Source: Escherichia phage vB_EcoP-101114UKE3. From it: 64,000 nucleotides of DNA. Positions 3,206 through 64,000 of the stretch are shown one piece after another. Positions within the stretch are counted from its first letter, which is position 1. The number at the start of each line of letters is the position of its first letter. Location: sequence record NC_070982.1; one strand, 5' to 3'. The notes under the pieces were generated by a model. That model was not told the DNA's origin and did not search any database. It worked only from the letters and a program-made list of their open reading frames with translations. A program made the translations under genes and the position numbers.

Positions 3206-3697
3206 ATGGACGCTATCGCATTGCCGCCTATACAGATGAGCCTAAGTCCGGCTGGTATGGAGTTTATCATGAAGCATGAAGGCATGAGAACTAAAGCCTA
3301 TAAAGACTCCGCTGGAATCTGGACTATATGTGTAGGGGCTACGCGCGATATGAATGGGTATCCAGTAAGACAAGGATTAACGTATTCTATAGAGGATTGT
3401 CTAGCTCTGCTAGATAGAGACACACAAGACTCTGTTCGTGCTACTCAGAAAAACATAAGAGTTCCTATGCTAGCTCATGAATTTGATGCTGTCACTTCTT
3501 TCAACTTTAATGTTGGTGGTGGTGCTTTGTCAGCTTCAAAACTTAGGAAAGTGATCAACGGAGATGTGAAGGGTGATGTTTACTCAGAGTTCTTACGTTG
3601 GGATAAGATAACTGTTAAAGGTGTAAAGCAGCGGAGTCCGGGACTTCACAATCGCAGGGTTGCAGAAGCAAATCTATACACTACAGGAAAATATTAA
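3206..3697 (+). CDS. lysozyme (GH24 muramidase, endolysin)
   Basis: HEGMRTKAYKDSAGIWTICVGAT motif typical of T4/lambda-type lysozymes; SD aaggagg. Confidence 0.8.
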   Translation: MDAIALPPIQMSLSPAGMEFIMKHEGMRTKAYKDSAGIWTICVGATRDMNGYPVRQGLTYSIEDCLALLDRDTQDSVRATQKNIRVPMLAHEFDAVTSFNFNVGGGALSASKLRKVINGDVKGDVYSEFLRWDKITVKGVKQRSPGLHNRRVAEANLYTTGKY

Positions 3698-3709
3698 TGG
3701 AGGTGCCTT

Positions 3710-4513
3710 TTGGCTATCGAAACAACTGCGGTAGTTACTACCGATTTAAACCCCCTATACCCACGGGACAGGGATTATCTTTATGAAGGGGCTGCCCAGA
3801 TACGACTGGTCAAACAAGTATTAATTAACACCTTTCCTAACATCACAGAGCCAGTTCAACTTGACTCAGATTCTTTCAACATCTTAGCAAACAAGGTTTC
3901 CTTTACTGGAGATTCTATGGATGTTGGAGGTTTGATGATCAAAAACTTAACTCCGGGAACTGGTGATAAAGATGCTGTAACCAAAGGTCAGATGGAAGCT
4001 TTCATGTTAAACTGGATGCAGAATAAACTCTATCGTATTGGGGCTTACTATATCACTGAAGAAGATATCAACCCCGGAGATTCTAGCTCTCTTGGTTTTG
4101 GTTCTTGGGCTAAAGTAACTGGTGTTGTTATGGGTACTGGTGTTGTTAACCCTGATGGCTCTGTTCCTAATGCTCAGCGTGTAGAGTTCCAAGCAGGTGG
4201 TACTGGTGGTCGTGTATTTAACACAATTCGTGCTGACAACATGCCTCTGACTACAATCAATGGTTCTAGTTTTCAAGTTAGTTCTTATTCTCACTCACAT
4301 AATATCACAATGGGTCGTGGAGATGCTAGTGGTCACAACAGCAGTCCTAATTGGTATAGTCCGGGTGGTGGTTATACTCAGGTAACTGACACTAACACCC
4401 ACTCTCACTCAATTACAGGTTCTGTTAGTTTTGGACGTGATGATGTATCGAGACAACCCATCAACACTTTGCCGCCTTTCAGAGCAGCGCATATCTGGAG
4501 ACGTATTAGCTAA
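3710..4513 (+). CDS. tail fibre protein with HxH repeats; probable TTG start
   Basis: In-frame stop at 3695-3697 leaves TTG 3710 as only start, GGAGG SD 6 nt upstream; SHSHNIT and THSHSIT motifs resemble metal-binding HxH repeats of fibre tips. Confidence 0.5.
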   Translation: MAIETTAVVTTDLNPLYPRDRDYLYEGAAQIRLVKQVLINTFPNITEPVQLDSDSFNILANKVSFTGDSMDVGGLMIKNLTPGTGDKDAVTKGQMEAFMLNWMQNKLYRIGAYYITEEDINPGDSSSLGFGSWAKVTGVVMGTGVVNPDGSVPNAQRVEFQAGGTGGRVFNTIRADNMPLTTINGSSFQVSSYSHSHNITMGRGDASGHNSSPNWYSPGGGYTQVTDTNTHSHSITGSVSFGRDDVSRQPINTLPPFRAAHIWRRIS

Positions 4514-4522
4514 GGAGGAACT

Positions 4523-7500
4523 ATGGCGCTTTATCCAATAAAATCTTTAGGGGCTGTAGGGGTTATTGCTGACCAAGCTCCGACTGATTTAGCACCTAAT
4601 GCTTTCACTAATGCTATCAATGCCCGCTTTGTAGAGCAAAGAGTTTTTAAGACGGGGGGCAATGCCCCTCTTTCTTATGTAGAAGAAGATAAAGAGATTA
4701 CACCACTTTCTTTTATATCAATGCCTTTTGACTACTATAGTGCAGGTAATAGCTTTCTGATTGTTGGTACAGACAAAAAGCTATACAAGCTAACAGATGA
4801 AAGTTTGACAGATATTAGCCGAAAGGTTGCTACTGTCACAAAAAGAGCTTCCGCTTCTATTAAGATATATCCGGTTGTTTCTCAGATTGTTCCTAAAGAA
4901 ACTTCTATTTCAATGAATTTCAATCAAACTAAAACCTTGGAAGTTTCTATTCTTCCTGAAGATGCTAATAACACAGCTTTAGTTTGGGAGGTTAGTAATT
5001 CTTCTTATGGTAAAGTAGAAGCTGACACCGAGAACCCTAAAACTGCAACCTTGACGTCTTATGAAAAAGAAGGGAATTTAGTAGTTACTGTATCAACAGC
5101 TGATAAATCTATTAGTGCTCAGATTGCAGTAAACATCATAGATGGTGATTCTGGTATCTTCTTAAGTCAGGATACAATAACTGTCCGCAAAGGTGGTAAC
5201 ACAACACTAACTGCTGTTACTGGAAAAACTCCTGTAACTTGGGTCTCTAGTAATGCTTCTGTTGTGTCTGTAACACCTAATGCTAATACACTGACAGCTA
5301 CTTTGTCTGCTAATGGTGAGGGTACTGTAACAATAACTGCTGATAACGGAACTAAGAGTGCTTCTTGTCAAATTACTGTTATACCTCAGATAGACAGTAT
5401 CACTCTGAGTCAGACAAGCGTTCAAATGAGCAGGGGTACTCAGTATGTTTTAACTGCTACGGTTAATCCTTCAGATGCTCCCAATAAAAGCATAACTTGG
5501 ACTTCCTCTAATCCTGCCATTGCCACAGTTTCTGGAAATAGTACAGAAGCGGTAATAACAGGGTTACTAGCTGGGTTTACTGAAATCACAGCTGTTACTC
5601 AAGAGGGTGATAGATCAGCAACCTGTACAGTGAGAGTTGATTTAGCTGGGAGAATGATGCGAACTTCTGCAATGGCTTTATCAGAACCTGTTGTAGATTC
5701 TATACAAGAAGAAGAAACCAATAATACTCCTATCGAATCAGAAGAGGTTTTATATTTTGTTAATGAGCCATCTGGAGTTGATACCTCAGGGATGTATGAA
5801 GGTAACAACTTCTATGATTACTCAAACGTCAATGATATGGAAGGTTTTGCACGAGCTGCACTTATGTCCAGCGATACTCCGTTGCAATCTTTATCACTAG
5901 ATATCATCGATGCCTCTCTTGATGTTGGGGAAGATATTGTAATTACAGCCAATGCTTTGCCTGAGGGAGAGTATTTCTATCAGTGGACAGTGGACAAAGC
6001 AGGATATGTTTCAACCACATCTACTACCGGGAAATCTCTAAAACTGACAGCTATTCGTAAAGGTGAGATCAAAGTTACTTGTACTGCTAGTCAAATGACT
6101 CAGAAAGATTATGATGCTTTTGACGACTATCCTTGGTATCACACCATAATCTCTAACTGTGCAGTGGCTACCACTCACTATGAAACACCACAGGTCAAAG
6201 AATTTGAATCTGAGTATTTCGTAGATCTTCCGGGATGGGGTGAGCAAACAGTCGTTGATAATGATGGCAACCCTTCTGTTAAGAAATTTAACTGGAAGTG
6301 TGAGCGTATTCGTGCATTCAACAACAGACTTTTTGCTCTGAATATGAGGGAATCTAATGCATCTGGTGTAACTACTCACTACCCTCTAAGACTTCGGTGG
6401 TCGAATTTCGCTAACGAAAACAAAGCTCCATCTCTTTGGGATGATTATGCTTATGATCGTTTAACAACTTCAGACCTATCAGCAAACATTGTTGGTCAAA
6501 CTGAGGCTTTGGAAAATGGGTACGCTGGGTATATAGATTTAGCAGATTCTAACGGAAGCTTGATTGATGTACTTCCTCTGAAAGATTACCTTTTTGTTTA
6601 CACGGAGTTCGAAACCTACATTGGTTCTCCAACCAATAACACATATCAGCCTCTTATGTTTAAGAAGCTGTTTAATGACTCTGGCATACTTGCTCCTGAG
6701 TGTGCAGTTGAAGTCGAAGGTGGACACTTCGTAGTAACTCAAAATGATGTGATCTTACACAATGGTGCATCTAAAAAATCTATAGCATCTAACCGAGTCA
6801 AGAATCTTCTCATTAATGAGATCTGTCTAGTAAACCCTCTAGCTACTAGAGTTCACCTACACCAAGACAAGAAAGAGGTTTGGGTTTTATATGTAGGTCC
6901 GGGAGAGCCTAAAGAGAGTTTTGCTTGTAATAAAGCCGCTGTTTGGAATTATGAGTTTGACACTTGGTCTTTCCGTACAATACCATATGCTCAGTGTATT
7001 GGGTTAGTCGATCCACCAGTTCTTGAGAGAGGTCCAATCTGGGCAGATTTTCAAGAGATCACTTGGGATGATCCCTCTATTAACCAATTAGTCTGGAGAA
7101 AGGATGCTAATAACTTCCGTCAAAGGATTACAATAGTTGGCTCTTTCCTGAAAGGATTCTATCAAGTGGATGTTGGTGCTCTGGATTACATCTATGATAG
7201 AACCAACGATAGGATTATAGAAAAACCTTTAGAAATGAGGCTAGAAAGAACTGGTATTGATTTTGATAGTGTCACTAACGAGTGGAATCAAAAACATATT
7301 AATAGATTTAGACCTCAAGTCACTGGTACGGGTACCTATACTTTTGAAGTCGGTGGAAGTCAATTCTCAAACGAGTATGGACATAATCACTCAACTAAAG
7401 AGTTTAGGGTAGGCTCAGATCGTCATGTATCCGTGAGACTGAACCATCCATACCTATTCTATAATGTTATAGATAATGATGTTAACAGTAATGCTTCTAT

Positions 7501-57410: not shown

Positions 57411-57462
57411 AAGTAGCTGGGCTGTCGTTATCAGAACTTACTACCCCCTTGTTTTACGGGCA

Positions 57463-59001: not shown

Positions 59002-59904
59002 TTATGCTGCCTGTTGGCGTGCTGCCATGATTTCGGCAGCTTTGCGCAACACTTCTTCTTCTTCCTGCGCAGCTTTCTCGTTCGCTTTGATAGTTGAAGC
59101 ATTTGAGATGCGACCACGAAGGTTAGACAATTTTTCAGTCATTTCGTTGATCGCTTTTTCCATTTCATCAGCGTATGAGTCCAGAGATTCAAGCTCTTTA
59201 GTCGAGGCATTAATCAGGTAGTCGTCGCTGATAGATACAGTTGATGCGGTCACTTTCTTAAGGAGTGAATCGAAAGTTTTCTTAACTTTGCCTACTTCTT
59301 CACTCAATGCGATAGTATTGTCAGAAGATGCGCCGTTGCGTTCATCTGCCAGTAGTGCCGCTTCAATACGGATTGCAGCCAGACGGTCAACCAGTGCATA
59401 AATATCCTGATTAAAGTTTTCGTTAACCTTCTGGTTGATTTGATTTGCTACCGGAACATTGTCGTTGCAACCTTTGTAGAATGCTGGGTTATCAACCTGC
59501 ACGTCTTCACCTTTAGCAAAGCGTTCAAAGGAATTAGACCAGCGGGCGCGGTTTTGTTCCATTTTGGCCTTAACTTGTTCCGGTTTAGCATCCTCTTTCG
59601 CTTTCGCTTCACCTTCCAGATTAATCCATTTCTTTTTACCGTTCGCCCCGTCAGTGTTATATTTGATAGGAGTAAGGAAAGAGATTGCAACCGAAATTAC
59701 ATCTAAATCACGATAACGCTCAGTTAACAAGAAATCAACCGCCGCCTGCAATACATCCAGTTTCTTACCGTTGGTGCGGAAGTGCTGCAAATGGCCTAAC
59801 AGGAAGTTAGAAACATCTTGTTTGATTGCCGCGTTGTTGCTACGAATGTTGTTAGCCAGTGCATTAAAGCCGGATTCGTTAACCAGATTAAAAACTTTAG
59901 CCAT
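59002..59904 (-). CDS. hypothetical early protein
   Basis: ATG 59904 (MAKVFNL) with AAGGTG SD; helical with E/K-rich C-terminus. Confidence 0.45.
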   Translation of the reverse strand: MAKVFNLVNESGFNALANNIRSNNAAIKQDVSNFLLGHLQHFRTNGKKLDVLQAAVDFLLTERYRDLDVISVAISFLTPIKYNTDGANGKKKWINLEGEAKAKEDAKPEQVKAKMEQNRARWSNSFERFAKGEDVQVDNPAFYKGCNDNVPVANQINQKVNENFNQDIYALVDRLAAIRIEAALLADERNGASSDNTIALSEEVGKVKKTFDSLLKKVTASTVSISDDYLINASTKELESLDSYADEMEKAINEMTEKLSNLRGRISNASTIKANEKAAQEEEEVLRKAAEIMAARQQAA

Positions 59905-59971
59905 GATATTCACCTTTCAATTGTAAGGGCACTATGCCCCGCTCTCTATGAGCTTTTTAAGTCACTATTGA

Positions 59972-60007
59972 CTTATCAATAATCACTCAATATCAAGTAA
60001 TTATTGA
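59972..60007. promoter_or_regulatory. perfect 11-bp inverted repeat TTATCAATAAT / ATTATTGATAA
   Basis: arms separated by about 15 bp, 70 nt upstream of first early gene. Confidence 0.4.
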
Positions 60008-60720
60008 TAAGCGAGGCGGTCTTATCAGGAGTTAACCTTGCCGCCTCCTTATCCGTGATGTTTCATCTGGTATCTTTAATTAGTCGCTATAAATAAAGCC
60101 GACCTGATAGCGATGATCAATCATCACAATAAGGCAGTGCGTCCGACTCTATTTAATTACTTTATCGTAACCGTCGGCAATATCGTCTACTTTGCTTTCG
60201 CTCCCGCCTATCCTTTTGTACTAACTCTCAATCGCTAACCATCGCCCACTACGGGAGGTTATTGCGAAAGAGTCATTAGCCGTCTAATACATTGACGTTT
60301 TATATCTTTCAGCAGGTTTACTACATAAACTGATTATGTACGCCATCAATAGTGGCCTCAAATCATTCACATCGTAAACGTTCACACTAAACCTTATTGT
60401 TAAATAGCAATTTGCCACTTTTTAACCATTCACCGCCGCCCCCAATTGGGCGTTAATTCGTCGGATTTGCCTACCCTGATAAACTTCTTTCACTGTAGCA
60501 CCTTGTTAGCGATGGCCGCCGCTACCCTTTAACCGTGGGCGATTAGTTTAGGCCGTTGCGTGTACTCAATGAATCCGTTTTATCAGTGGTGACGTTTCCA
60601 GTTAAGGGATTGTAAAAACTGTTTACCCTGATAATTTAGGGAGTCTTACGCCGTTTTATCTGGTATGTTTTCCGATGGTTATTATCATCCAACATATTCA
60701 ACCGATATAGGAGAATGTTT

Positions 60721-60737
60721 AAATTGTTAAAGAGCGG
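60721..60737. repeat. 17-bp repeat AAATTGTTAAAGAGCGG (copy 1)
   Basis: exact copy at 61088-61104; core TTAAAGAGCGG also near 60958 and partial near 61498. Confidence 0.5.
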
Positions 60738-60823
60738 TAAATCTATCAGTGTGCTTTCTCACACTATGCAACTGTTAGCCGTTGTTACGCTTTTCTTAAG
60801 CGGTGAATTGCTTAAGTGTGCTC

Positions 60824-60852
60824 ATTATGAATCATGCTGTTTTAGCTGTCAA
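60824..60852 (-). promoter_or_regulatory. sigma70-type early promoter P1
   Basis: minus-strand TTGACA, 17-nt spacer, CATAAT. Confidence 0.5.
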
Positions 60853-60990
60853 CCGCTTTTTTAATCTTTTTCGTCGTTCCCTTTATTGGGAGGATATATC
60901 AATCAGCTATATTTGATTGAAGATTAAGCGGTAAGGCTTAACTCACGATTCATATTTTTAAAGAGCGGTGTTTCTTACTGCTTGGTGAAC

Positions 60991-61018
60991 ATTCTATCAG
61001 AGTATTTCACCTTGTCAA
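60991..61018 (-). promoter_or_regulatory. sigma70-type early promoter P2
   Basis: minus-strand TTGACA, 16-nt spacer, extended -10 TGATAGAAT. Confidence 0.5.
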
Positions 61019-61087
61019 CTCTTTTTATCATCTTCTTTTATTCTATTCCCTTATCTCGCTTGAATCTATGCGAAAGGGCAAGATGAT

Positions 61088-61104
61088 AAATTGTTAAAGA
61101 GCGG
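61088..61104. repeat. 17-bp repeat AAATTGTTAAAGAGCGG (copy 2)
   Basis: exact repeat of 60721-60737. Confidence 0.5.
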
Positions 61105-61149
61105 GGCACTAAGTGCCGGATGTTTCAAGTCATCGCTGACCGTGTGAAC

Positions 61150-61177
61150 ATCTTATCATAATGATTCGATGTGTCAA
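61150..61177 (-). promoter_or_regulatory. sigma70-type early promoter P3
   Basis: minus-strand TTGACA, 16-nt spacer, extended -10 TGATAAGAT. Confidence 0.45.
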
Positions 61178-61239
61178 CAACTATTTTTCGATTAATGCAT
61201 CTTGATAAACTAGCGACCGTTAAGGCCGCTAACCTTACC

Positions 61240-61440
61240 TTAGTTCATACGTTTAAAGGTTAAATCTTTATCTGTACTTACCAGCGATAACACCGCAATA
61301 GCTTTGCCTTTATCGGCATCGGCTACCATCTCTTTTGCCTGCTGTAATGTACTACCGACTATTCTCATAATCATGTTAGTAACGTTAATGCTAGTGCAAG
61401 TGATTTGCGTGTCTTTGCTTGAGAAGGTGTAGATGTTCAT
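61240..61440 (-). CDS. small hypothetical protein
   Basis: start MNIYTF with GAGGA SD. Confidence 0.35.
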   Translation of the reverse strand: MNIYTFSSKDTQITCTSINVTNMIMRIVGSTLQQAKEMVADADKGKAIAVLSLVSTDKDLTFKRMN

Positions 61441-61799
61441 TGATAAATCCTCGTTATGGCATGGTTGAGAGTTTATCAAGATACACTAATCGAATTATTA
61501 AAGAGCAAGGCTAAACATCTAGCCTATCAGGAGGTAACTTACTGCATCACGTCCTGATAAGATTCAATATACACTATCCTAAAACCGTTGCAAGTCTTTT
61601 TCTAAAATAATTTCACTTTCTTTTAGGCATAAAGGAACGAACACACGAATAACATCAAGGGAGGAAGAAAACAAGCTCTATAATCGAAATCTAGGCACAT
61701 AGGAAGCATCCTAGCGAGCTAAACAGGGGCAAGATGTGCAATCACCTTAGAAATGAAAAAAGCGCCTCAAAAGGGCGCTTAGAGAGTCTTACGGATTGG

Positions 61800-62126
61800 T
61801 TACGGATTGGTGCAAGTGCCGTTACCGGATGATATTTCGTTCATCGACTCATCGAACAACGTCATGCTAGACCGCATCATGTGATCTATAGTGATTTGCT
61901 TTCCGGTAATTTCGTTAACAAGCATTGCAGACTTACTATCAACTATCTTGCTGTCGTAGTCGTTCAGGTCAATCAATACTACCTTGCTGGACTTCTTGCC
62001 AGTGTCGTAGTTTTCCATAAGATAGGTGCATTGCAGACCATCTAAACTAGCCTCGTTGAATACGGCAGCATAGGACACGGAAGAAATAGCGAACAAAGCA
62101 GAACATACAGCTAATTTAATTTTCAT
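61800..62126 (-). CDS. small secreted protein
   Basis: signal peptide MKIKLAVCSALFAISSVSYAA. Confidence 0.45.
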   Translation of the reverse strand: MKIKLAVCSALFAISSVSYAAVFNEASLDGLQCTYLMENYDTGKKSSKVVLIDLNDYDSKIVDSKSAMLVNEITGKQITIDHMMRSSMTLFDESMNEISSGNGTCTNP

Positions 62127-62218
62127 GATCCAACCCTTAAGCGGAACGTGCAACAAAGAAAAACAAGTCATAGATAAATGCTATGATACAGAGAACTAAC
62201 AGACAATGCAAAAAATAC

Positions 62219-62491
62219 TTATGTAACATTACTCACCACTTTATCTAGATGATCATCGAACGTTTCACAAATGGATTGCACTTCGTCAATATCTAGTAAC
62301 AGACCGTGACGGGCAAAGAATTGAGCTAACTCAAGATAATCCGCACCAATAAGCATGACACCATTGAAAGGGGCGATCTTAACATCTTGAGATGTTACCA
62401 ATAATAAATTACCAATATCAGCAATAGCGTCATAATTCAGCGTAACGCCTACACCGTAATTGTGTGTTTCAATAATGGCAATAGTTTCCAT
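62219..62491 (-). CDS. hypothetical acidic protein
   Basis: 90-aa ORF coupled to upstream gene. Confidence 0.4.
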   Translation of the reverse strand: METIAIIETHNYGVGVTLNYDAIADIGNLLLVTSQDVKIAPFNGVMLIGADYLELAQFFARHGLLLDIDEVQSICETFDDHLDKVVSNVT

Positions 62492-62493
62492 CG

Positions 62494-62742
62494 TTAATTA
62501 TCCTCGACGGTTAGTAGTTCTTCCAGTGACAAACCGGATTTAACCAGCAAATCACGATATTCGTTAGCATCCATCGGATCGAGGCCGGATAATCGGGCAA
62601 CGGTCATGCGTGCATGTGCTGAAGACAAGGAAGCTAAAGCACGGATAGGGATCAATACAAGCCCATATTTACCGCTGATAACTAAATCACCGTGCTGGAT
62701 GCACATATGAGCATTTACTACGATTGCAAATGATTCATTCAC
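62494..62742 (-). CDS. hypothetical protein
   Basis: 82-aa ORF, start overlaps upstream stop. Confidence 0.4.
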   Translation of the reverse strand: MNESFAIVVNAHMCIQHGDLVISGKYGLVLIPIRALASLSSAHARMTVARLSGLDPMDANEYRDLLVKSGLSLEELLTVEDN

Positions 62743-63239
62743 TGGATAGCCTCACAATTAGCAAAGTTAATAAAGGTTGTATAAACTGCTACACCGTCAT
62801 GATATGCAGTCGTAGCGAGTATGGTTTCACTTACATCACCATAGCTAACGAGATTAGTTACAAACTGTAATTTCTCTTTCTCAACCTTCTGATACAGAGA
62901 ATACGTCACCATATCGTGATCACTATCAGCACGTTTCAATTTAATGACTGACTGAGTGCCGGATTTCTCGCCCAATGGGGTAAGAGTGACACGCACATTA
63001 GCGGTAGTGACTTCATTGAAGTGAACACGCCAGAATGCATCATTGCCATCACTTCCAACGTCACGGCAAGCCATATCAGGAGCGTTCTTAAATGTGCTAA
63101 CAAAAGATTGCAGACCAGTAGGAGCGGATAACCTCTTATCATCTTTAGCCTGCACATTGGTAGCGATAGCACTAACACCGATAGCTGCAACCAGTGCATA
63201 AGACGCTAGATTGATAGCCTGCATTGCTTTGATAGCCAT
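62739..63239 (-). CDS. secreted/periplasmic protein
   Basis: start MAIKAMQ with AGGAG SD; signal peptide ending ATNVQA. Confidence 0.45.
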   Translation of the reverse strand: MAIKAMQAINLASYALVAAIGVSAIATNVQAKDDKRLSAPTGLQSFVSTFKNAPDMACRDVGSDGNDAFWRVHFNEVTTANVRVTLTPLGEKSGTQSVIKLKRADSDHDMVTYSLYQKVEKEKLQFVTNLVSYGDVSETILATTAYHDGVAVYTTFINFANCEAIQ

Positions 63240-63520
63240 TATTACTACTCCTGATAGATGAAAGATTGTTTGTCGTGTGTAGTTACTTAGGCTGATCAAC
63301 CTTCACTACTCACTATCACCGCTAACTACTTTACATCACTGCTTCATTAACGATAATTCAAACTACGATTGCAACTATATATTAAAGGAAAAACATGTCA
63401 ACCACTTATTTTCAAACTCTTTCATAACTCACTGAATATAAAAGGAATTTAATTTACTAAACTTTCTTACTCAGAGATACAGCTTACCAAATAGATGTTA
63501 TTTTATAACACTTACAGAAC

Positions 63521-63615
63521 GGGTAGCAGACCAACGGGATAGATAGATGGGTAAGACGTGCCGCATAGGTTAGCCAATGGGTAAGAAGCCTAACGAGGAA
63601 GGGGAAACGGGTAGG
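63521..63615. repeat. cluster of five GGGTA(A/G)G-type short repeats
   Basis: GGGTAG, GGGATAG, GGGTAAG, GGGTAAG, GGGTAGG at 13-30 bp spacing in ORF-free DNA. Confidence 0.45.
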
Positions 63616-63688
63616 ATATAATGTAAGTTAGTTACAGGTAACAGGTCAGACCATGCGGTAATAAATTACCAGTCAAATTCCTACTCAT

Positions 63689-63760
63689 CAAAAGAAAAAA
63701 GAAACGCTGAAAAAAGAAAAGAATAAAAGAAAGAATAAAAATAATAACTAAAGTAAACAA
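63689..63760. repeat. 70-bp purine (A/G) tract on plus strand
   Basis: aaaagaaaaaagaaacgctgaaaaaagaaaagaataaaagaaagaataaaaataataa. Confidence 0.5.
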
Positions 63761-63848
63761 CTACCAGTCTAATGATACATACATCAATAATCCACTCATG
63801 AAACATTAACATAGGTTATTACTATTAAACTTGGGGTAGTGTGAGGAT

Positions 63849-63857
63849 TGTTATAAT
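63849..63857 (+). promoter_or_regulatory. extended -10 element TGtTATAAT (rightward)
   Basis: perfect TGnTATAAT; weak -35; target lies beyond window. Confidence 0.3.
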
Positions 63858-64000
63858 TGCATGGTGTTACCATTACTAACCTCACTATGATAGCCCTTAC
63901 TATTAGCCCTCTTATTATCACCCCTTAACAGTACATCAGAGTCTAGCCTTTCATCCTTCCTTAACATGAGTAGAAGAAATACGGGTGGGATATTACTGGT

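What the first reader, a model, noticed from the sequence alone, without database searches (positions are those of the whole stretch)
61240..63239. Block of secreted and acidic small proteins at the far end
Two of five minus-strand ORFs have clear Sec signal peptides, and there are no recognisable phage structural or replication motifs. Phage-encoded periplasmic proteins in early regions often act in superinfection exclusion or receptor masking. Being bounded by ORF-free repeat DNA on both sides, the block could also be a horizontally acquired moron.
Basis: inference. Interest (0 to 1): 0.35.

Follow-up and report, generated by a model that had tools for sequence, protein, structure and literature searches.

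The report
Kuravirus early cassette of exported proteins
The block is the first, self-contained early operon at the right end of a phiEco32-like coliphage genome; it encodes two exported beta-rich proteins and small acidic cytoplasmic proteins of unknown function, is conserved in nearly all relatives, and lies next to copies of the host's ribosomal-RNA antitermination signal.

Summary
The window is Escherichia phage vB_EcoP-101114BS3 (Kuravirus, phiEco32-like), and all five minus-strand ORFs are real genes (dN/dS 0.08-0.16). B has a canonical Sec signal peptide. E has a signal peptide or signal-anchor. Each has two invariant cysteines. AlphaFold models show an 8-stranded calycin-like barrel (E) and a 7-strand beta domain (B). 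C is strongly acidic, D mildly acidic, A basic.

E-D-C-B is the right-terminal early operon already described for phiEco32 (genes 128-125) and SU10: a sigma70 promoter, the genes, then a terminator. E and B occur in 92 and 85 of about 97 related phage records, so this is no recent acquisition. The cassette does move with its promoter: in EcoN5 it sits about 5 kb further in. No homologue of known function exists, and the database label "terminase" on B is wrong. Superinfection exclusion or envelope takeover remains an untested best guess.

Gene A belongs to a second transcription unit. The "ORF-free repeat DNA" contains four modules of promoter, hairpin (three of four) and boxA. The best boxA copy matches an E. 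coli rrn leader at 21 of 21 bases. An approximately 0.8 kb covariation-supported structured RNA follows, with no Rfam family.

The parts
63737..64000 (.). Region homologous to the genome's direct terminal repeat; the window ends roughly 10-25 bp short of the physical right end
   Evidence: PAS59 record positions 1-275 are annotated repeat_region, and position 12 aligns to window 64000. The SU7 genome end extrapolates to about window 63987. Boundaries are approximate.
63374..63401 (-). P_E, sigma70-type promoter of the cassette (TTGACA-16-TATAGT, 11 of 12 consensus positions), with no boxA downstream
   Evidence: GGTTGACA-N16-TATAGT is conserved in nine relatives including phiEco32; Bas87 has AGTTGACA and the metagenomic contig has TTGTCA. 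The SU10 paper reports 'one promoter upstream of CDS125'.
63240..63373 (-). 134-nt leader, specific to the short-E phages; it replaces the short leader and N-terminal domain coding of the long-E relatives
   Evidence: Homology to MLP3 and phiEco32 stops about 14 nt after the -10 hexamer and resumes at about codon 6 of E.
62739..63239 (-). Gene E (166 aa): N-terminal signal peptide or signal-anchor (codons 1-31, 63147-63239), then an 8-stranded up-and-down beta barrel with invariant Cys58 and Cys162; counterpart of the C-terminal part of phiEco32 gp128
62494..62742 (-). Gene D (82 aa, GTG start overlapping E's stop; pI 5.1), found only in the SU7-like clade (15 records); weakly related to an unannotated phiEco32 ORF and to gp127
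62219..62491 (-). Gene C (90 aa, pI 4.1, net -11), cytoplasmic; counterpart of phiEco32 gp126 (40% identity); absent in Bas88 and TH42
61800..62126 (-). Gene B (108 aa): canonical Sec signal peptide (codons 1-20), then an 88-aa seven-strand beta domain with invariant Cys33 and Cys105; counterpart of phiEco32 gp125, mislabelled 'terminase'
61760..61780 (-). Intrinsic terminator ending the E-D-C-B unit (GCGCC-CTTTTGA-GGCGC followed by T6)
   Evidence: Invariant in nine SU7-like relatives. phiEco32 has a different hairpin plus T-run at the same place. The SU10 paper reports a 'putative terminator downstream of CDS121'.
61566..61593 (-). P_A, first promoter of the second unit (TTGCAA-16-TATATT here; TTGACA-17-TAATAT in phiEco32 and Bas87)
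61495..61525 (-). Hairpin (61508-61525) followed by a boxA-like GCTCTTTAATAA (61495-61506): a leader resembling the rrn boxB-boxA antiterminator
61463..61494 (-). 5' arm of a 32-bp stem that encloses gene A (pairs with 61187-61218)
   Evidence: 84% complementary. The minimum-free-energy fold forms it, z = -6.3. The arms are invariant in 8 relatives apart from one G.U to A-U change.
61240..61440 (-). Gene A (66 aa, basic, no export signal), present in only 11 records and absent from Bas87, phiEco32 and EcoN5
61187..61218 (-). 3' arm of the stem that encloses gene A
60720..61177 (-). Three further modules, outside the finding. P1 61150-61177, hairpin, boxA 61091-61102. P2 60991-61018, boxA-like 60955-60966. 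P3 60824-60852, hairpin, boxA 60724-60735.
   Evidence: The P1 module matches an E. coli rrn leader at 21 of 21 bases.
59914..60720 (-). Adjacent conserved structured RNA of about 0.8 kb (outside the finding), lying between the last boxA and the 303-aa gene

Best explanation
ANATOMY (shown; about 0.9 confidence). The block is the right-terminal early region of a Kuravirus genome and consists of two transcription units.

Unit 1 starts about 0.6 kb from the physical right end, just inside the terminal repeat. It is a strong sigma70 promoter without boxA (63374-63401), genes E, D, C and B, and an intrinsic terminator (61760-61780). It corresponds to phiEco32 genes 128-125. It is a self-contained cassette that has moved together with its promoter in some relatives.

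E is sent across the inner membrane by a hydrophobic segment that is invariant in the family. In many relatives that segment is an internal transmembrane helix behind a cytoplasmic domain of about 125 aa. E's periplasmic part is an 8-stranded calycin-like barrel. B is a classical Sec-secreted 88-aa beta domain. Each keeps two invariant cysteines, which fits a periplasmic disulfide. C and D are small acidic cytoplasmic proteins.

Unit 2 starts at promoter P_A. It carries a hairpin plus boxA leader resembling the rrn antiterminator, and it contains gene A inside a conserved 32-bp stem. It runs into three more promoter/boxA modules and then the remaining early genes.

MECHANISM (inferred; about 0.35 confidence). 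Host RNA polymerase transcribes unit 1 as soon as the right end enters the cell. That RNA polymerase has not been made termination-resistant, so it stops at the terminator, giving a brief immediate-early pulse. E (membrane-tethered or released) and B act in the periplasm or at the inner membrane to remodel the envelope of the infected cell. The most likely effect is to block DNA delivery by later-arriving phages, that is, superinfection exclusion in the manner of T4 Imm/Sp, or otherwise to protect the envelope. C and D act in the cytoplasm as host-takeover or anti-defence factors.
For: Identity and position: 100% match to MZ234015.1; relatives place the block 0.8-2.8 kb from the right end.

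Real genes: dN/dS 0.08-0.16.

Unit architecture: promoter and terminator found and conserved, and described for SU10 and phiEco32 in PMC4281155. Early genes of this group are transcribed by sigma70 RNA polymerase (PMC12276001).

Export: N-terminal features and hydropathy. In the long E forms, 5-6 Lys/Arg precede the hydrophobic segment, which predicts an N-in, C-out topology. Two different N-termini in the B family are both hydrophobic. Cysteine pairs are invariant.

Folds: E residues 40-166 have block-mean pLDDT 76-94 and eight strands; B residues 30-108 have pLDDT 90-97.

The hydrophobic segment NLASYALVAAIG-S is invariant (position 22 is Val or Ile) even between homologues whose periplasmic part is only 41-45% identical. 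Synonymous codon changes there, including a serine TCT/AGT switch, show selection at the protein level. That argues for a working membrane helix rather than a disposable signal.

E and B are the most widely kept cassette members: 92 and 85 records, against 63 (C), 15 (D) and 11 (A).

The cassette moves as a unit with its promoter.
Against: No sequence or fold similarity to any characterised exclusion, receptor-masking or anti-defence protein, so the functional part rests only on location, timing and analogy.

SignalP and a transmembrane-topology predictor such as DeepTMHMM could not be run. Cleavage of E is uncertain because its uncharged stretch is 27 residues long.

Early timing of this particular operon is taken from promoter type and from statements about phiEco32 and SU10. 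The primary phiEco32 papers were not available.

C is hydrophobic overall (GRAVY +0.41), unlike classical DNA-mimic anti-restriction proteins.

Nothing shows which genome end enters the cell first.
Confidence: 0.4

Rival explanations
1. The cassette is a moron in the strict sense: a recently and horizontally acquired extra transcription unit that benefits the host or phage but is not part of the lineage's own programme.
For: It has its own sigma70 promoter and terminator. It sits at two alternative genome positions, and the EcoN5-type insertion is flanked by a duplicated GGAGGTAnnAAGT. Content varies inside it: A is absent in Bas87, C is absent in Bas88 and TH42, D is clade-specific, and E has long and short forms.
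Against: E is in 92 and B in 85 of about 97 related records, including the type phage phiEco32. No homologue exists outside kuravirus-like phages among 5.8 billion clustered proteins or 1.84 billion representatives. GC content of 0.39-0.44 matches the neighbouring sequence. No plasmid match.
Confidence: 0.15
2. E and B serve the phage's own infection rather than exclusion. They might help complete genome entry, as T5 pre-early proteins do, or protect the cell wall from the virion's own wall-degrading activity and from lysis-from-without.
For: It is the first operon at the genome end, ahead of all other early promoters. The proteins are directed to the envelope. E and B are near-universal in the group, as expected for a needed function.
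Against: No similarity to lysozyme inhibitors or to entry proteins. In EcoN5-type genomes the cassette lies about 5 kb further inside, which argues against a role that depends on being first to enter.
Confidence: 0.2
3. E and B are lipid- or LPS-binding periplasmic barrels that interfere with lipoprotein or LPS traffic and so mask the O-antigen/LPS receptor used by kuraviruses.
For: Both models draw weak Foldseek matches to open beta barrels that bind hydrophobic ligands: lipocalins and LolA for E, LolA for B. Kuraviruses depend on O-antigen and probably the LPS core (PMC11990801).
Against: TM-scores are low (0.26-0.58) and E-values marginal. The best matches for E are de novo designed barrels, which means the topology is generic. 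LPS on the surface turns over slowly compared with a lytic cycle.
Confidence: 0.1
4. B is a terminase subunit, as databases label it (PHROG 13168, phiEco32 gp125, and the Bas86, Bas87, Bas88 and MLP3 annotations).
For: PHROG 13168 match at E = 1e-41, annotated 'terminase'; the same label appears in several records.
Against: No Pfam terminase domain. It is an 88-aa all-beta secreted domain in the early leftward region. The real large terminase is annotated elsewhere in the same record and carries Terminase_6N and Terminase_6C in a relative. The label is most likely copied from the phiEco32 RefSeq entry.
Confidence: 0.01

Closest known systems
phiEco32 genes 125-128 / SU10 CDS121-125 (right-end early operon of Kuravirus)
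   Same: Same position, order and wiring (promoter, genes, terminator, then a spacer with sigma70 promoters). E corresponds to the C-terminal part of gp128 (41% identity), C to gp126 (40%) and B to gp125 (63%).
   Different: In this phage E lacks the 125-aa N-terminal domain. gp127 is replaced by D, which is related to an unannotated phiEco32 ORF. Gene A is added after the terminator. None of these proteins has a described function.
Early envelope-directed superinfection-exclusion proteins of lytic phages (T4 Imm and Sp, T5 Llp)
   Same: Small early proteins sent to the inner membrane or periplasm of the infected cell (from my own knowledge of those systems); the predicted location and timing match.
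   Different: No sequence or fold similarity. B is not a lipoprotein, unlike Llp. E's fold is a beta barrel. Function untested.
Morons of lambdoid phages (autonomous promoter-gene-terminator units)
   Same: Own promoter and terminator; found at alternative positions in related genomes.
   Different: Near-universal in the lineage, no foreign homologues, normal base composition, in a virulent phage.
E. coli rrn leader antiterminator (boxB hairpin plus boxA) and lambda nut sites
   Same: A 21-base identity (CCGCTCTTTAACAATTTATCA) to the leader upstream of a 16S gene in E. coli IAI39. Preceded by a hairpin and placed 18-93 nt downstream of the predicted transcription starts of strong sigma70 promoters.
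   Different: Present in four tandem modules in a virulent phage. No N-like protein is evident. Binding of NusB/NusE and any antitermination are untested.
Calycin/lipocalin-type 8-stranded beta barrels
   Same: The E model is an 8-stranded up-and-down barrel preceded by a short helix. Foldseek retrieves designed barrels, lipocalins, avidins and LolA.
   Different: TM-scores are only 0.3-0.58 and identity 6-17%. No sequence-level relation. Ligand unknown.
T7 early region (promoters A1-A3, gene 0.3, RNase III sites)
   Same: A cluster of strong host-type promoters at the genome end, small acidic early proteins, and a long stem flanking an early gene that could be an RNase III site (from my own knowledge of T7).
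   Different: No homology to Ocr. T7 has no boxA elements. RNase III processing here is conjecture.

Membership tests
Sec/SPase I signal peptide (protein B) | Positively charged n-region, 7-15-residue hydrophobic core, small uncharged residues at -3 and -1 | tested here: met
   MKIK (+2), LAVCSALFAISSV, then S-Y-A|A. Hydropathy is in the range of E. coli control signal peptides. The other B clade has a different but also hydrophobic N-terminus ending V-K-A|A.
Sec/SPase I signal peptide (protein B) | Prediction by a trained method (SignalP) or experimental cleavage and export | not testable with these tools
   No SignalP or topology predictor was available.
Sec signal peptide versus signal-anchor (protein E) | An N-terminal hydrophobic segment that is cleaved and therefore free to vary | tested here: inconclusive
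   A V-Q-A|K site is present, but the uncharged run is 27 residues. NLASYALVAAIG-S is invariant at 41% overall identity. The same segment is internal in the 286-290-aa forms, preceded by 5-6 Lys/Arg. Export of the barrel is well supported; cleavage is not.
Bacterial lipoprotein (SPase II) | Lipobox [LVI][ASTVI][GAS]C with a conserved Cys at +1 | tested here: not met
   B has L-A-V-C at residues 5-8 with Val at -1, too close to the N-terminus, and the Cys is Gly in the other clade. E has no Cys in its N-terminal segment.
Moron | Autonomous unit with its own promoter and terminator | tested here: met
   Promoter at 63374-63401 and terminator at 61760-61780, both conserved.
Moron | Present in some close relatives and absent from others; signs of foreign origin | tested here: not met
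   E is in 92 and B in 85 of about 97 records. No homologues outside the lineage. GC content is normal. The criterion is met only for the add-on genes A (11 records) and D (15 records).
Known superinfection-exclusion or receptor-blocking proteins (T4 Imm/Sp, T5 Llp, Cor, SieA) | Sequence or structural homology to a characterised member | tested here: not met
   No such PHROG or Pfam match. No such Foldseek match in PDB or BFVD.
Known superinfection-exclusion or receptor-blocking proteins | Expression reduces infection by a second phage | not testable with these tools
   Requires experiments.
Terminase (database label on B) | Terminase ATPase/nuclease domains or a small-subunit DNA-binding fold, located in the packaging module | tested here: not met
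   No Pfam terminase hit. B is a secreted all-beta 88-aa domain in the early region. The true large terminase is elsewhere.
Calycin/lipocalin fold (E) | 8-stranded antiparallel up-and-down barrel | tested here: met
   The AF2 model has strands at residues 56-62, 67-77, 81-88, 97-103, 111-119, 124-132, 139-147 and 150-158, with barrel pLDDT 76-94. Foldseek top hits are 8-stranded barrels. This is a predicted structure only.
Calycin/lipocalin fold (E) | Lipocalin sequence signatures or sequence homology to the family | tested here: not met
   No Pfam or PDB sequence match; identity to structural hits is 6-17%.
DNA-mimic anti-restriction proteins (Ocr, ArdA) for C and D | Homology, or an extremely acidic hydrophilic surface | tested here: not met
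   No homology. C has net charge -11 but only 16% Asp+Glu and GRAVY +0.41; D has net charge -4.
rrn-type Nus antitermination site (leaders of unit 2 and the spacer) | boxA sequence in the transcribed leader, preceded by a boxB-like hairpin | tested here: met
   GCTCTTTAAYAA occurs 3 times in 64 kb, all in this region, against 0.03 expected. One copy matches an E. coli rrn leader at 21 of 21 bases. Hairpins precede three of the four copies. Each relative has 3-5 copies of the motif, all but at most one of them in its spacer.
rrn-type Nus antitermination site | NusB/NusE binding and boxA-dependent read-through | not testable with these tools
   Requires biochemistry, or nusB/boxA mutants.

The most novel reading that the evidence does not exclude
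The right end of kuravirus genomes imitates a host ribosomal-RNA operon. Four strong sigma70 promoters are each followed by an rrn-type boxA, three of them preceded by a hairpin. One module encloses protein gene A in a 32-bp leader-trailer-like stem. The array then drives a covariation-supported structured RNA of about 0.8 kb that matches no Rfam family, before reaching the early genes. The exported-protein cassette E-D-C-B is the one unit deliberately left outside this termination-resistant regime, so E and B are made only as a short immediate-early pulse. E and B would then be a new, lineage-specific pair of periplasmic exclusion or envelope-takeover proteins: a membrane-anchored calycin-like barrel plus a secreted beta domain.
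Probability: 0.35. Interest if true: 0.75.

Novelty: new member of a known kind. Interest (0 to 1): 0.42.

Why it matters
Kuraviruses are common coliphages used as therapy candidates, yet their early biology is largely unknown. The BASEL study notes that they resist restriction-modification systems without any known inhibitor (PMC11990801).

This work does four things for that early region:
- It shows that the first operon to be transcribed encodes two envelope-directed orphan proteins that nearly every relative keeps.
- It corrects a "terminase" label that has spread through databases.
- It defines a compact cassette whose function (exclusion, envelope protection or anti-defence) can be tested directly in the K-12-infecting BASEL isolate Bas86.
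- It shows that the flanking "ORF-free repeat DNA" carries copies of the host rrn antitermination signal and a large conserved structured RNA.

If the last point is confirmed, it would explain how long early transcripts escape termination in these phages and would add a new large phage RNA.

Tried and rejected
Database searches with nothing informative for the five proteins:
- Pfam and PADLOC. PHROGs gave only families of unknown function and the wrong "terminase" label.
- PDB sequence search.
- Foldseek of the E model against PDB and BFVD, and of the B model against PDB. Only generic barrels or no significant hit came back.
- Large protein searches found only kuravirus-like proteins. The exhaustive profile search of E added one 2168-aa Ig-repeat protein that I judge a compositional artefact.
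- No match in plasmids.

Relationships tested:
- E versus B as paralogues: rejected (hhalign E = 0.39).
- No paralogues of any block gene elsewhere in the window.
- C, D, A and gp127 as one family: only D with gp127 and with the unannotated phiEco32 ORF has weak support (E = 5e-4 and 9e-6). C and A are not supported.
- The N-terminal domain of long E, gp127 and the unannotated phiEco32 ORF have no Pfam match.

Other checks:
- No tRNA gene and no Rfam family in 59800-64000.
- Salmonella phage 7-11 has no boxA at its right end, so boxA use does not extend to that distant relative.
- The primary phiEco32 papers (PMC2587145, PMC3275717) are not held.
- A paper on a prophage sRNA that mentions kuraviruses was irrelevant.
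- Alternative longer starts for E (TTG at 63299) and B (ATG at 62171) were rejected. They lack a Shine-Dalgarno sequence, and the shorter starts have one.
Full report
**What the window is.** The last 4.1 kb of the window is 100% identical to Escherichia phage vB_EcoP-101114BS3 (MZ234015.1), a Kuravirus of the Gordonclarkvirinae, the phiEco32-like C3 podoviruses. It is 81-96% alignable at 84-96% identity to about 15 close relatives, including SU7, PAS59, MLP3, TH43 and the BASEL phages Bas86-88. In all, 97 phage records match; no plasmid does. In SU7, which is deposited as a linear genome, the block lies 0.8-2.8 kb from the right end. In PAS59 the first 275 bp are annotated as the terminal repeat, and position 12 of that record aligns to window 64000. 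The window therefore ends roughly 10-25 bp short of the physical right end, and about 63737-64000 corresponds to the terminal repeat.

**Checking the observation.** Five minus-strand ORFs sit at the given coordinates:

| Gene | Coordinates | Length | Charge |
|---|---|---|---|
| A | 61240-61440 | 66 aa | pI 8.9 (basic) |
| B | 61800-62126 | 108 aa | mature pI 4.4 |
| C | 62219-62491 | 90 aa | pI 4.1, net -11 |
| D | 62494-62742 | 82 aa (GTG start) | pI 5.1 |
| E | 62739-63239 | 166 aa | mature pI 5.5 |

Codon alignments against 7-11 relatives give median dN/dS of 0.08 (A), 0.12 (B), 0.11 (C), 0.08 (D) and 0.16 (E), with dS of 0.25-0.52. All five are genuine genes.

B begins MKIKLAVCSALFAISSVSYA|AVFNE, a textbook Sec signal. 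E begins MAIKAMQAINLASYALVAAIGVSAIATNVQA|KDD. Both N-termini have the hydropathy of E. coli signal peptides that I used as controls from memory. The other clade of B homologues has an unrelated N-terminus that is again hydrophobic (MWFIKF...LLSAMGSVKA|ATF), attached to a mature domain that is 63-67% identical. That is what selection for export predicts. B's Cys8 is not a lipobox cysteine: the residue at -1 is Val, the position is too early, and the other clade has Gly there. SignalP itself was not available.

**What the proteins look like.** AlphaFold2 models were built with family alignments.
- E has an unstructured or helical N-terminus of 38 residues. After it come a short helix and eight strands, with block-mean pLDDT of 76-94. 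Foldseek finds only generic 8-stranded up-and-down barrels: designed barrels, lipocalins, avidins and LolA, at TM-scores of 0.3-0.58. Among viral models it finds only its own family.
- B forms a seven-strand beta domain with pLDDT of 90-97 and has no significant PDB match.
- Each family has exactly two invariant cysteines in the exported part, one near its start and one 3-4 residues from the C-terminus. That fits a periplasmic disulfide.
- E and B are not detectably related to each other.
- None of the five proteins matches Pfam, PADLOC or any PDB sequence.
- All families are confined to kuravirus-like phages, even in an exhaustive profile search of 1.84 billion representatives.
- The PHROG label "terminase" on B, also carried by phiEco32 gp125 and several other records, is a misannotation. 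B is a secreted 88-aa beta domain with no terminase domain, and the true large terminase lies elsewhere.

**An unusual feature of E.** The hydrophobic segment NLASYALVAAIG-S is invariant (one position is Val or Ile) even in homologues whose periplasmic part is only 41-45% identical. Codon comparison shows synonymous differences inside it, including a serine TCT/AGT switch, so the constraint acts on the protein. In phiEco32 gp128, TH43, MLP3, Bas87, Bas88 and many metagenomic relatives the protein is 286-290 aa long. A cytoplasmic-looking domain of about 125 aa and a run of 5-6 Lys/Arg precede the same segment, which is then an internal transmembrane helix with N-in, C-out topology. In this window, and in SU7, PAS59, Bas86 and EcoN5-like phages, the N-domain is missing. 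Here an unrelated 134-nt leader replaces it. I conclude that export of the barrel is well supported. Whether the segment is cleaved off or kept as an anchor is open, and its invariance favours a working membrane helix.

**Transcription units.** A strong sigma70 promoter (TTGACA-16-TATAGT, 63374-63401) precedes E. An intrinsic terminator (GCGCC-CTTTTGA-GGCGC followed by T6, 61760-61780) follows B. The promoter is conserved in every relative examined, including phiEco32. The terminator is invariant in nine SU7-like phages, and phiEco32 has a different hairpin plus T-run at the same place. [quoted passage not shown] By similarity, E corresponds to the C-terminal part of gp128 (41%), C to gp126 (40%) and B to gp125 (63%). 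D resembles an unannotated ORF between phiEco32 genes 126 and 127 (33%, E = 9e-6) and, weakly, gp127. Gene A lies after the terminator, behind its own promoter (61566-61593), so it is not part of the E-B operon.

**Is it a moron?** Partly.
- Against: E occurs in 92 records, B in 85 and C in 63 of about 97 related records. Base composition is ordinary. No foreign homologues exist.
- For: only D (15 records) and A (11 records) are clade-specific additions, and C is missing in Bas88 and TH42. The cassette is also mobile. In EcoN5 (NC_070986) and in a 76.7-kb metagenomic contig, the promoter together with E, an 88-aa gp127-like gene, C and B lies between the 147-aa gene and the Hydrolase_2 gene. 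That corresponds to window position 57436/57449, about 5 kb further inside the genome. The insertion is flanked by a duplicated GGAGGTAnnAAGT, and the genome end runs straight into the promoter spacer.

So the unit is autonomous and movable, but it is an old and nearly universal component of the lineage.

**The "ORF-free repeat DNA".** On the minus strand, P_A and the three spacer promoters P1-P3 (61150-61177, 60991-61018, 60824-60852) are each followed 18-93 nt downstream by the motif (C/T)GCTCTTTAA(C/T/A)AA. In three of the four cases a hairpin precedes the motif. GCTCTTTAAYAA occurs three times in the 64-kb window, all in this region, against 0.03 expected by chance. The P1 copy, CCGCTCTTTAACAATTTATCA, is identical over 21 bases to the leader between the P2 promoter and the 16S gene of an E. 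coli rrn operon. In that leader the sequence follows the boxB hairpin. From my own knowledge this sequence is rrn boxA, the NusB/NusE loading site. Each relative carries 3-5 copies of the motif, nearly all in its spacer. Salmonella phage 7-11 has none at its right end. I found no paper linking boxA or Nus factors to these phages, and the 7-11 study states that an antitermination strategy "remains to be defined". The cassette promoter P_E has no boxA, which fits termination at 61760-61780.

Gene A is enclosed by a 32-bp stem with arms at 61463-61494 and 61187-61218. The minimum-free-energy fold forms it (z = -6.3). Its arms are invariant in eight relatives except for one G.U to A-U change. It could be an RNase III site, by analogy with rRNA leader-trailer helices and T7 early mRNAs. 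That is conjecture.

**A further side result.** The 807 nt between the last boxA and the 303-aa gene (59914-60720) has no conserved ORF. Yet it is 88-91% identical to phiEco32 and EcoN5, far more conserved than the cassette proteins. RNAalifold on nine relatives predicts 232 pairs in 37 helices. Of these, 61 pairs show compensatory double changes, and 98.9% of cells are paired. Sliding the pairing partners by 1-3 columns leaves only 2-6 such pairs, and shuffling gives 30 +/- 3.5, with none of 500 shuffles reaching 61. No Rfam family matches. An 18-nt conserved motif from this RNA is found in only three IMG/VR contigs, all about 77 kb long. This is a large structured RNA that strong promoters with rrn-type antiterminators would transcribe. 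Untranslated RNA of that length is the kind of transcript that needs protection from Rho, which gives the boxA elements a rationale. That last point is inference.

**How the block most likely works.**
- Shown: gene reality, operon boundaries, export signals, predicted folds, distribution among relatives, and mobility of the cassette.
- Inferred: host RNA polymerase transcribes E-D-C-B immediately after entry and stops at the terminator. E and B act at the inner membrane or in the periplasm. C and D act in the cytoplasm.
- Best guess: superinfection exclusion or envelope protection. This rests on analogy with early exported proteins of T4 and T5, at roughly 35% confidence. The rivals are a role in the phage's own entry or wall protection (20%), a strict moron (15%) and lipid/LPS binding that masks the receptor (10%). 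The remainder is unassigned.

The BASEL observation that these phages resist restriction-modification systems without a known inhibitor (PMC11990801) makes C and D worth testing, but nothing here links them to that trait.

**Verdict.** The block itself is a known, conserved early operon of unknown function, now characterised as encoding two exported orphan proteins. Its interest is moderate. The flanking boxA modules and the 0.8-kb structured RNA are the more surprising items and deserve their own follow-up.

Noticed in passing
window 60720-61600, minus strand (boxA at 61495-61506, 61091-61102, 60955-60966, 60724-60735): Four tandem modules of a sigma70 promoter followed by boxA, three of them with a hairpin before the boxA. 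The P1 copy is identical over 21 bases to the boxA region of an E. coli rrn leader. Each relative has 3-5 copies of the motif, nearly all in its spacer, but Salmonella phage 7-11 has none at its right end. This suggests the phage uses the host's Nus-factor (rrn-type) antitermination for early transcripts. I found no paper describing it.
   Followed up: partly
window 59914-60720, minus strand: An ORF-free stretch of about 0.8 kb that is 88-91% identical to phiEco32 and EcoN5. It has 232 predicted base pairs in 37 helices, 61 of them with compensatory double changes (2-6 in slid controls; 0 of 500 shuffles reach 61). No Rfam family matches. It is a large conserved structured RNA downstream of the boxA promoters.
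   Followed up: partly
window 61187-61218 and 61463-61494: A 32-bp stem encloses gene A. It forms in the minimum-free-energy fold (z = -6.3), and its arms are invariant in 8 relatives apart from one G.U to A-U change. It may be an RNase III processing stem, reminiscent of rRNA leader-trailer helices.
   Followed up: partly
L013 (EcoN5, NC_070986.1) 3608-5118; L012 9861-11482; window 57436-57449: In EcoN5 and one metagenomic kuravirus, the whole cassette with its promoter lies between the 147-aa gene and the Hydrolase_2 gene instead of at the genome end. The insertion is flanked by a duplicated GGAGGTAnnAAGT (ribosome-binding-site region).
   Followed up: yes
L004 (phiEco32) 3979-4155, minus strand: An unannotated ORF of about 60-70 aa between phiEco32 genes 126 and 127 is 33% identical to gene D. 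gp127, an 87-aa protein, is labelled 'polymerase' in RefSeq, which looks as unfounded as 'terminase' for gp125.
   Followed up: partly
window 62739-63373; L008 4328-5191; L004 4445-5317: Protein E exists in a short form (162-167 aa) and a long form (286-290 aa, with a cytoplasmic N-domain of about 125 aa containing four Cys). The two forms are scattered across clades. Here a 134-nt leader replaces the N-domain coding sequence. The N-domain has no Pfam match.
   Followed up: partly
window 59002-59913, minus strand: The first gene after the spacer encodes a conserved 303-aa protein (PHROG 13018, unknown function; 80% identical in the metagenomic relative). It has a weak PADLOC LmuB-like match (E = 5e-4) over a helical C-terminal region.
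   Followed up: no
window 60004-61674, both strands: The source GenBank record annotates about ten ORFs of 30-49 aa in the promoter/boxA spacer and structured-RNA region. Better-curated relatives (SU7, Bas86) do not call them, and they overlap the RNA elements, so they are probably spurious.
   Followed up: partly
window 63690-63741 and 63894-63927: Short purine-rich tandem repeats (AAAAGAAAAGAAT-like; T-rich on the transcribed strand) and a 15-nt repeat lie near the inner edge of, and inside, the terminal-repeat homologue. Their function is unknown; they may relate to the genome terminus or packaging.
   Followed up: no
L012 14599-14880: The metagenomic kuravirus relative encodes a 93-aa early protein with a Pfam Phage_lipoprotein (PF24052) hit a few kb downstream. 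This is another candidate envelope-directed early protein in the group. I did not check for it in this window.
   Followed up: no
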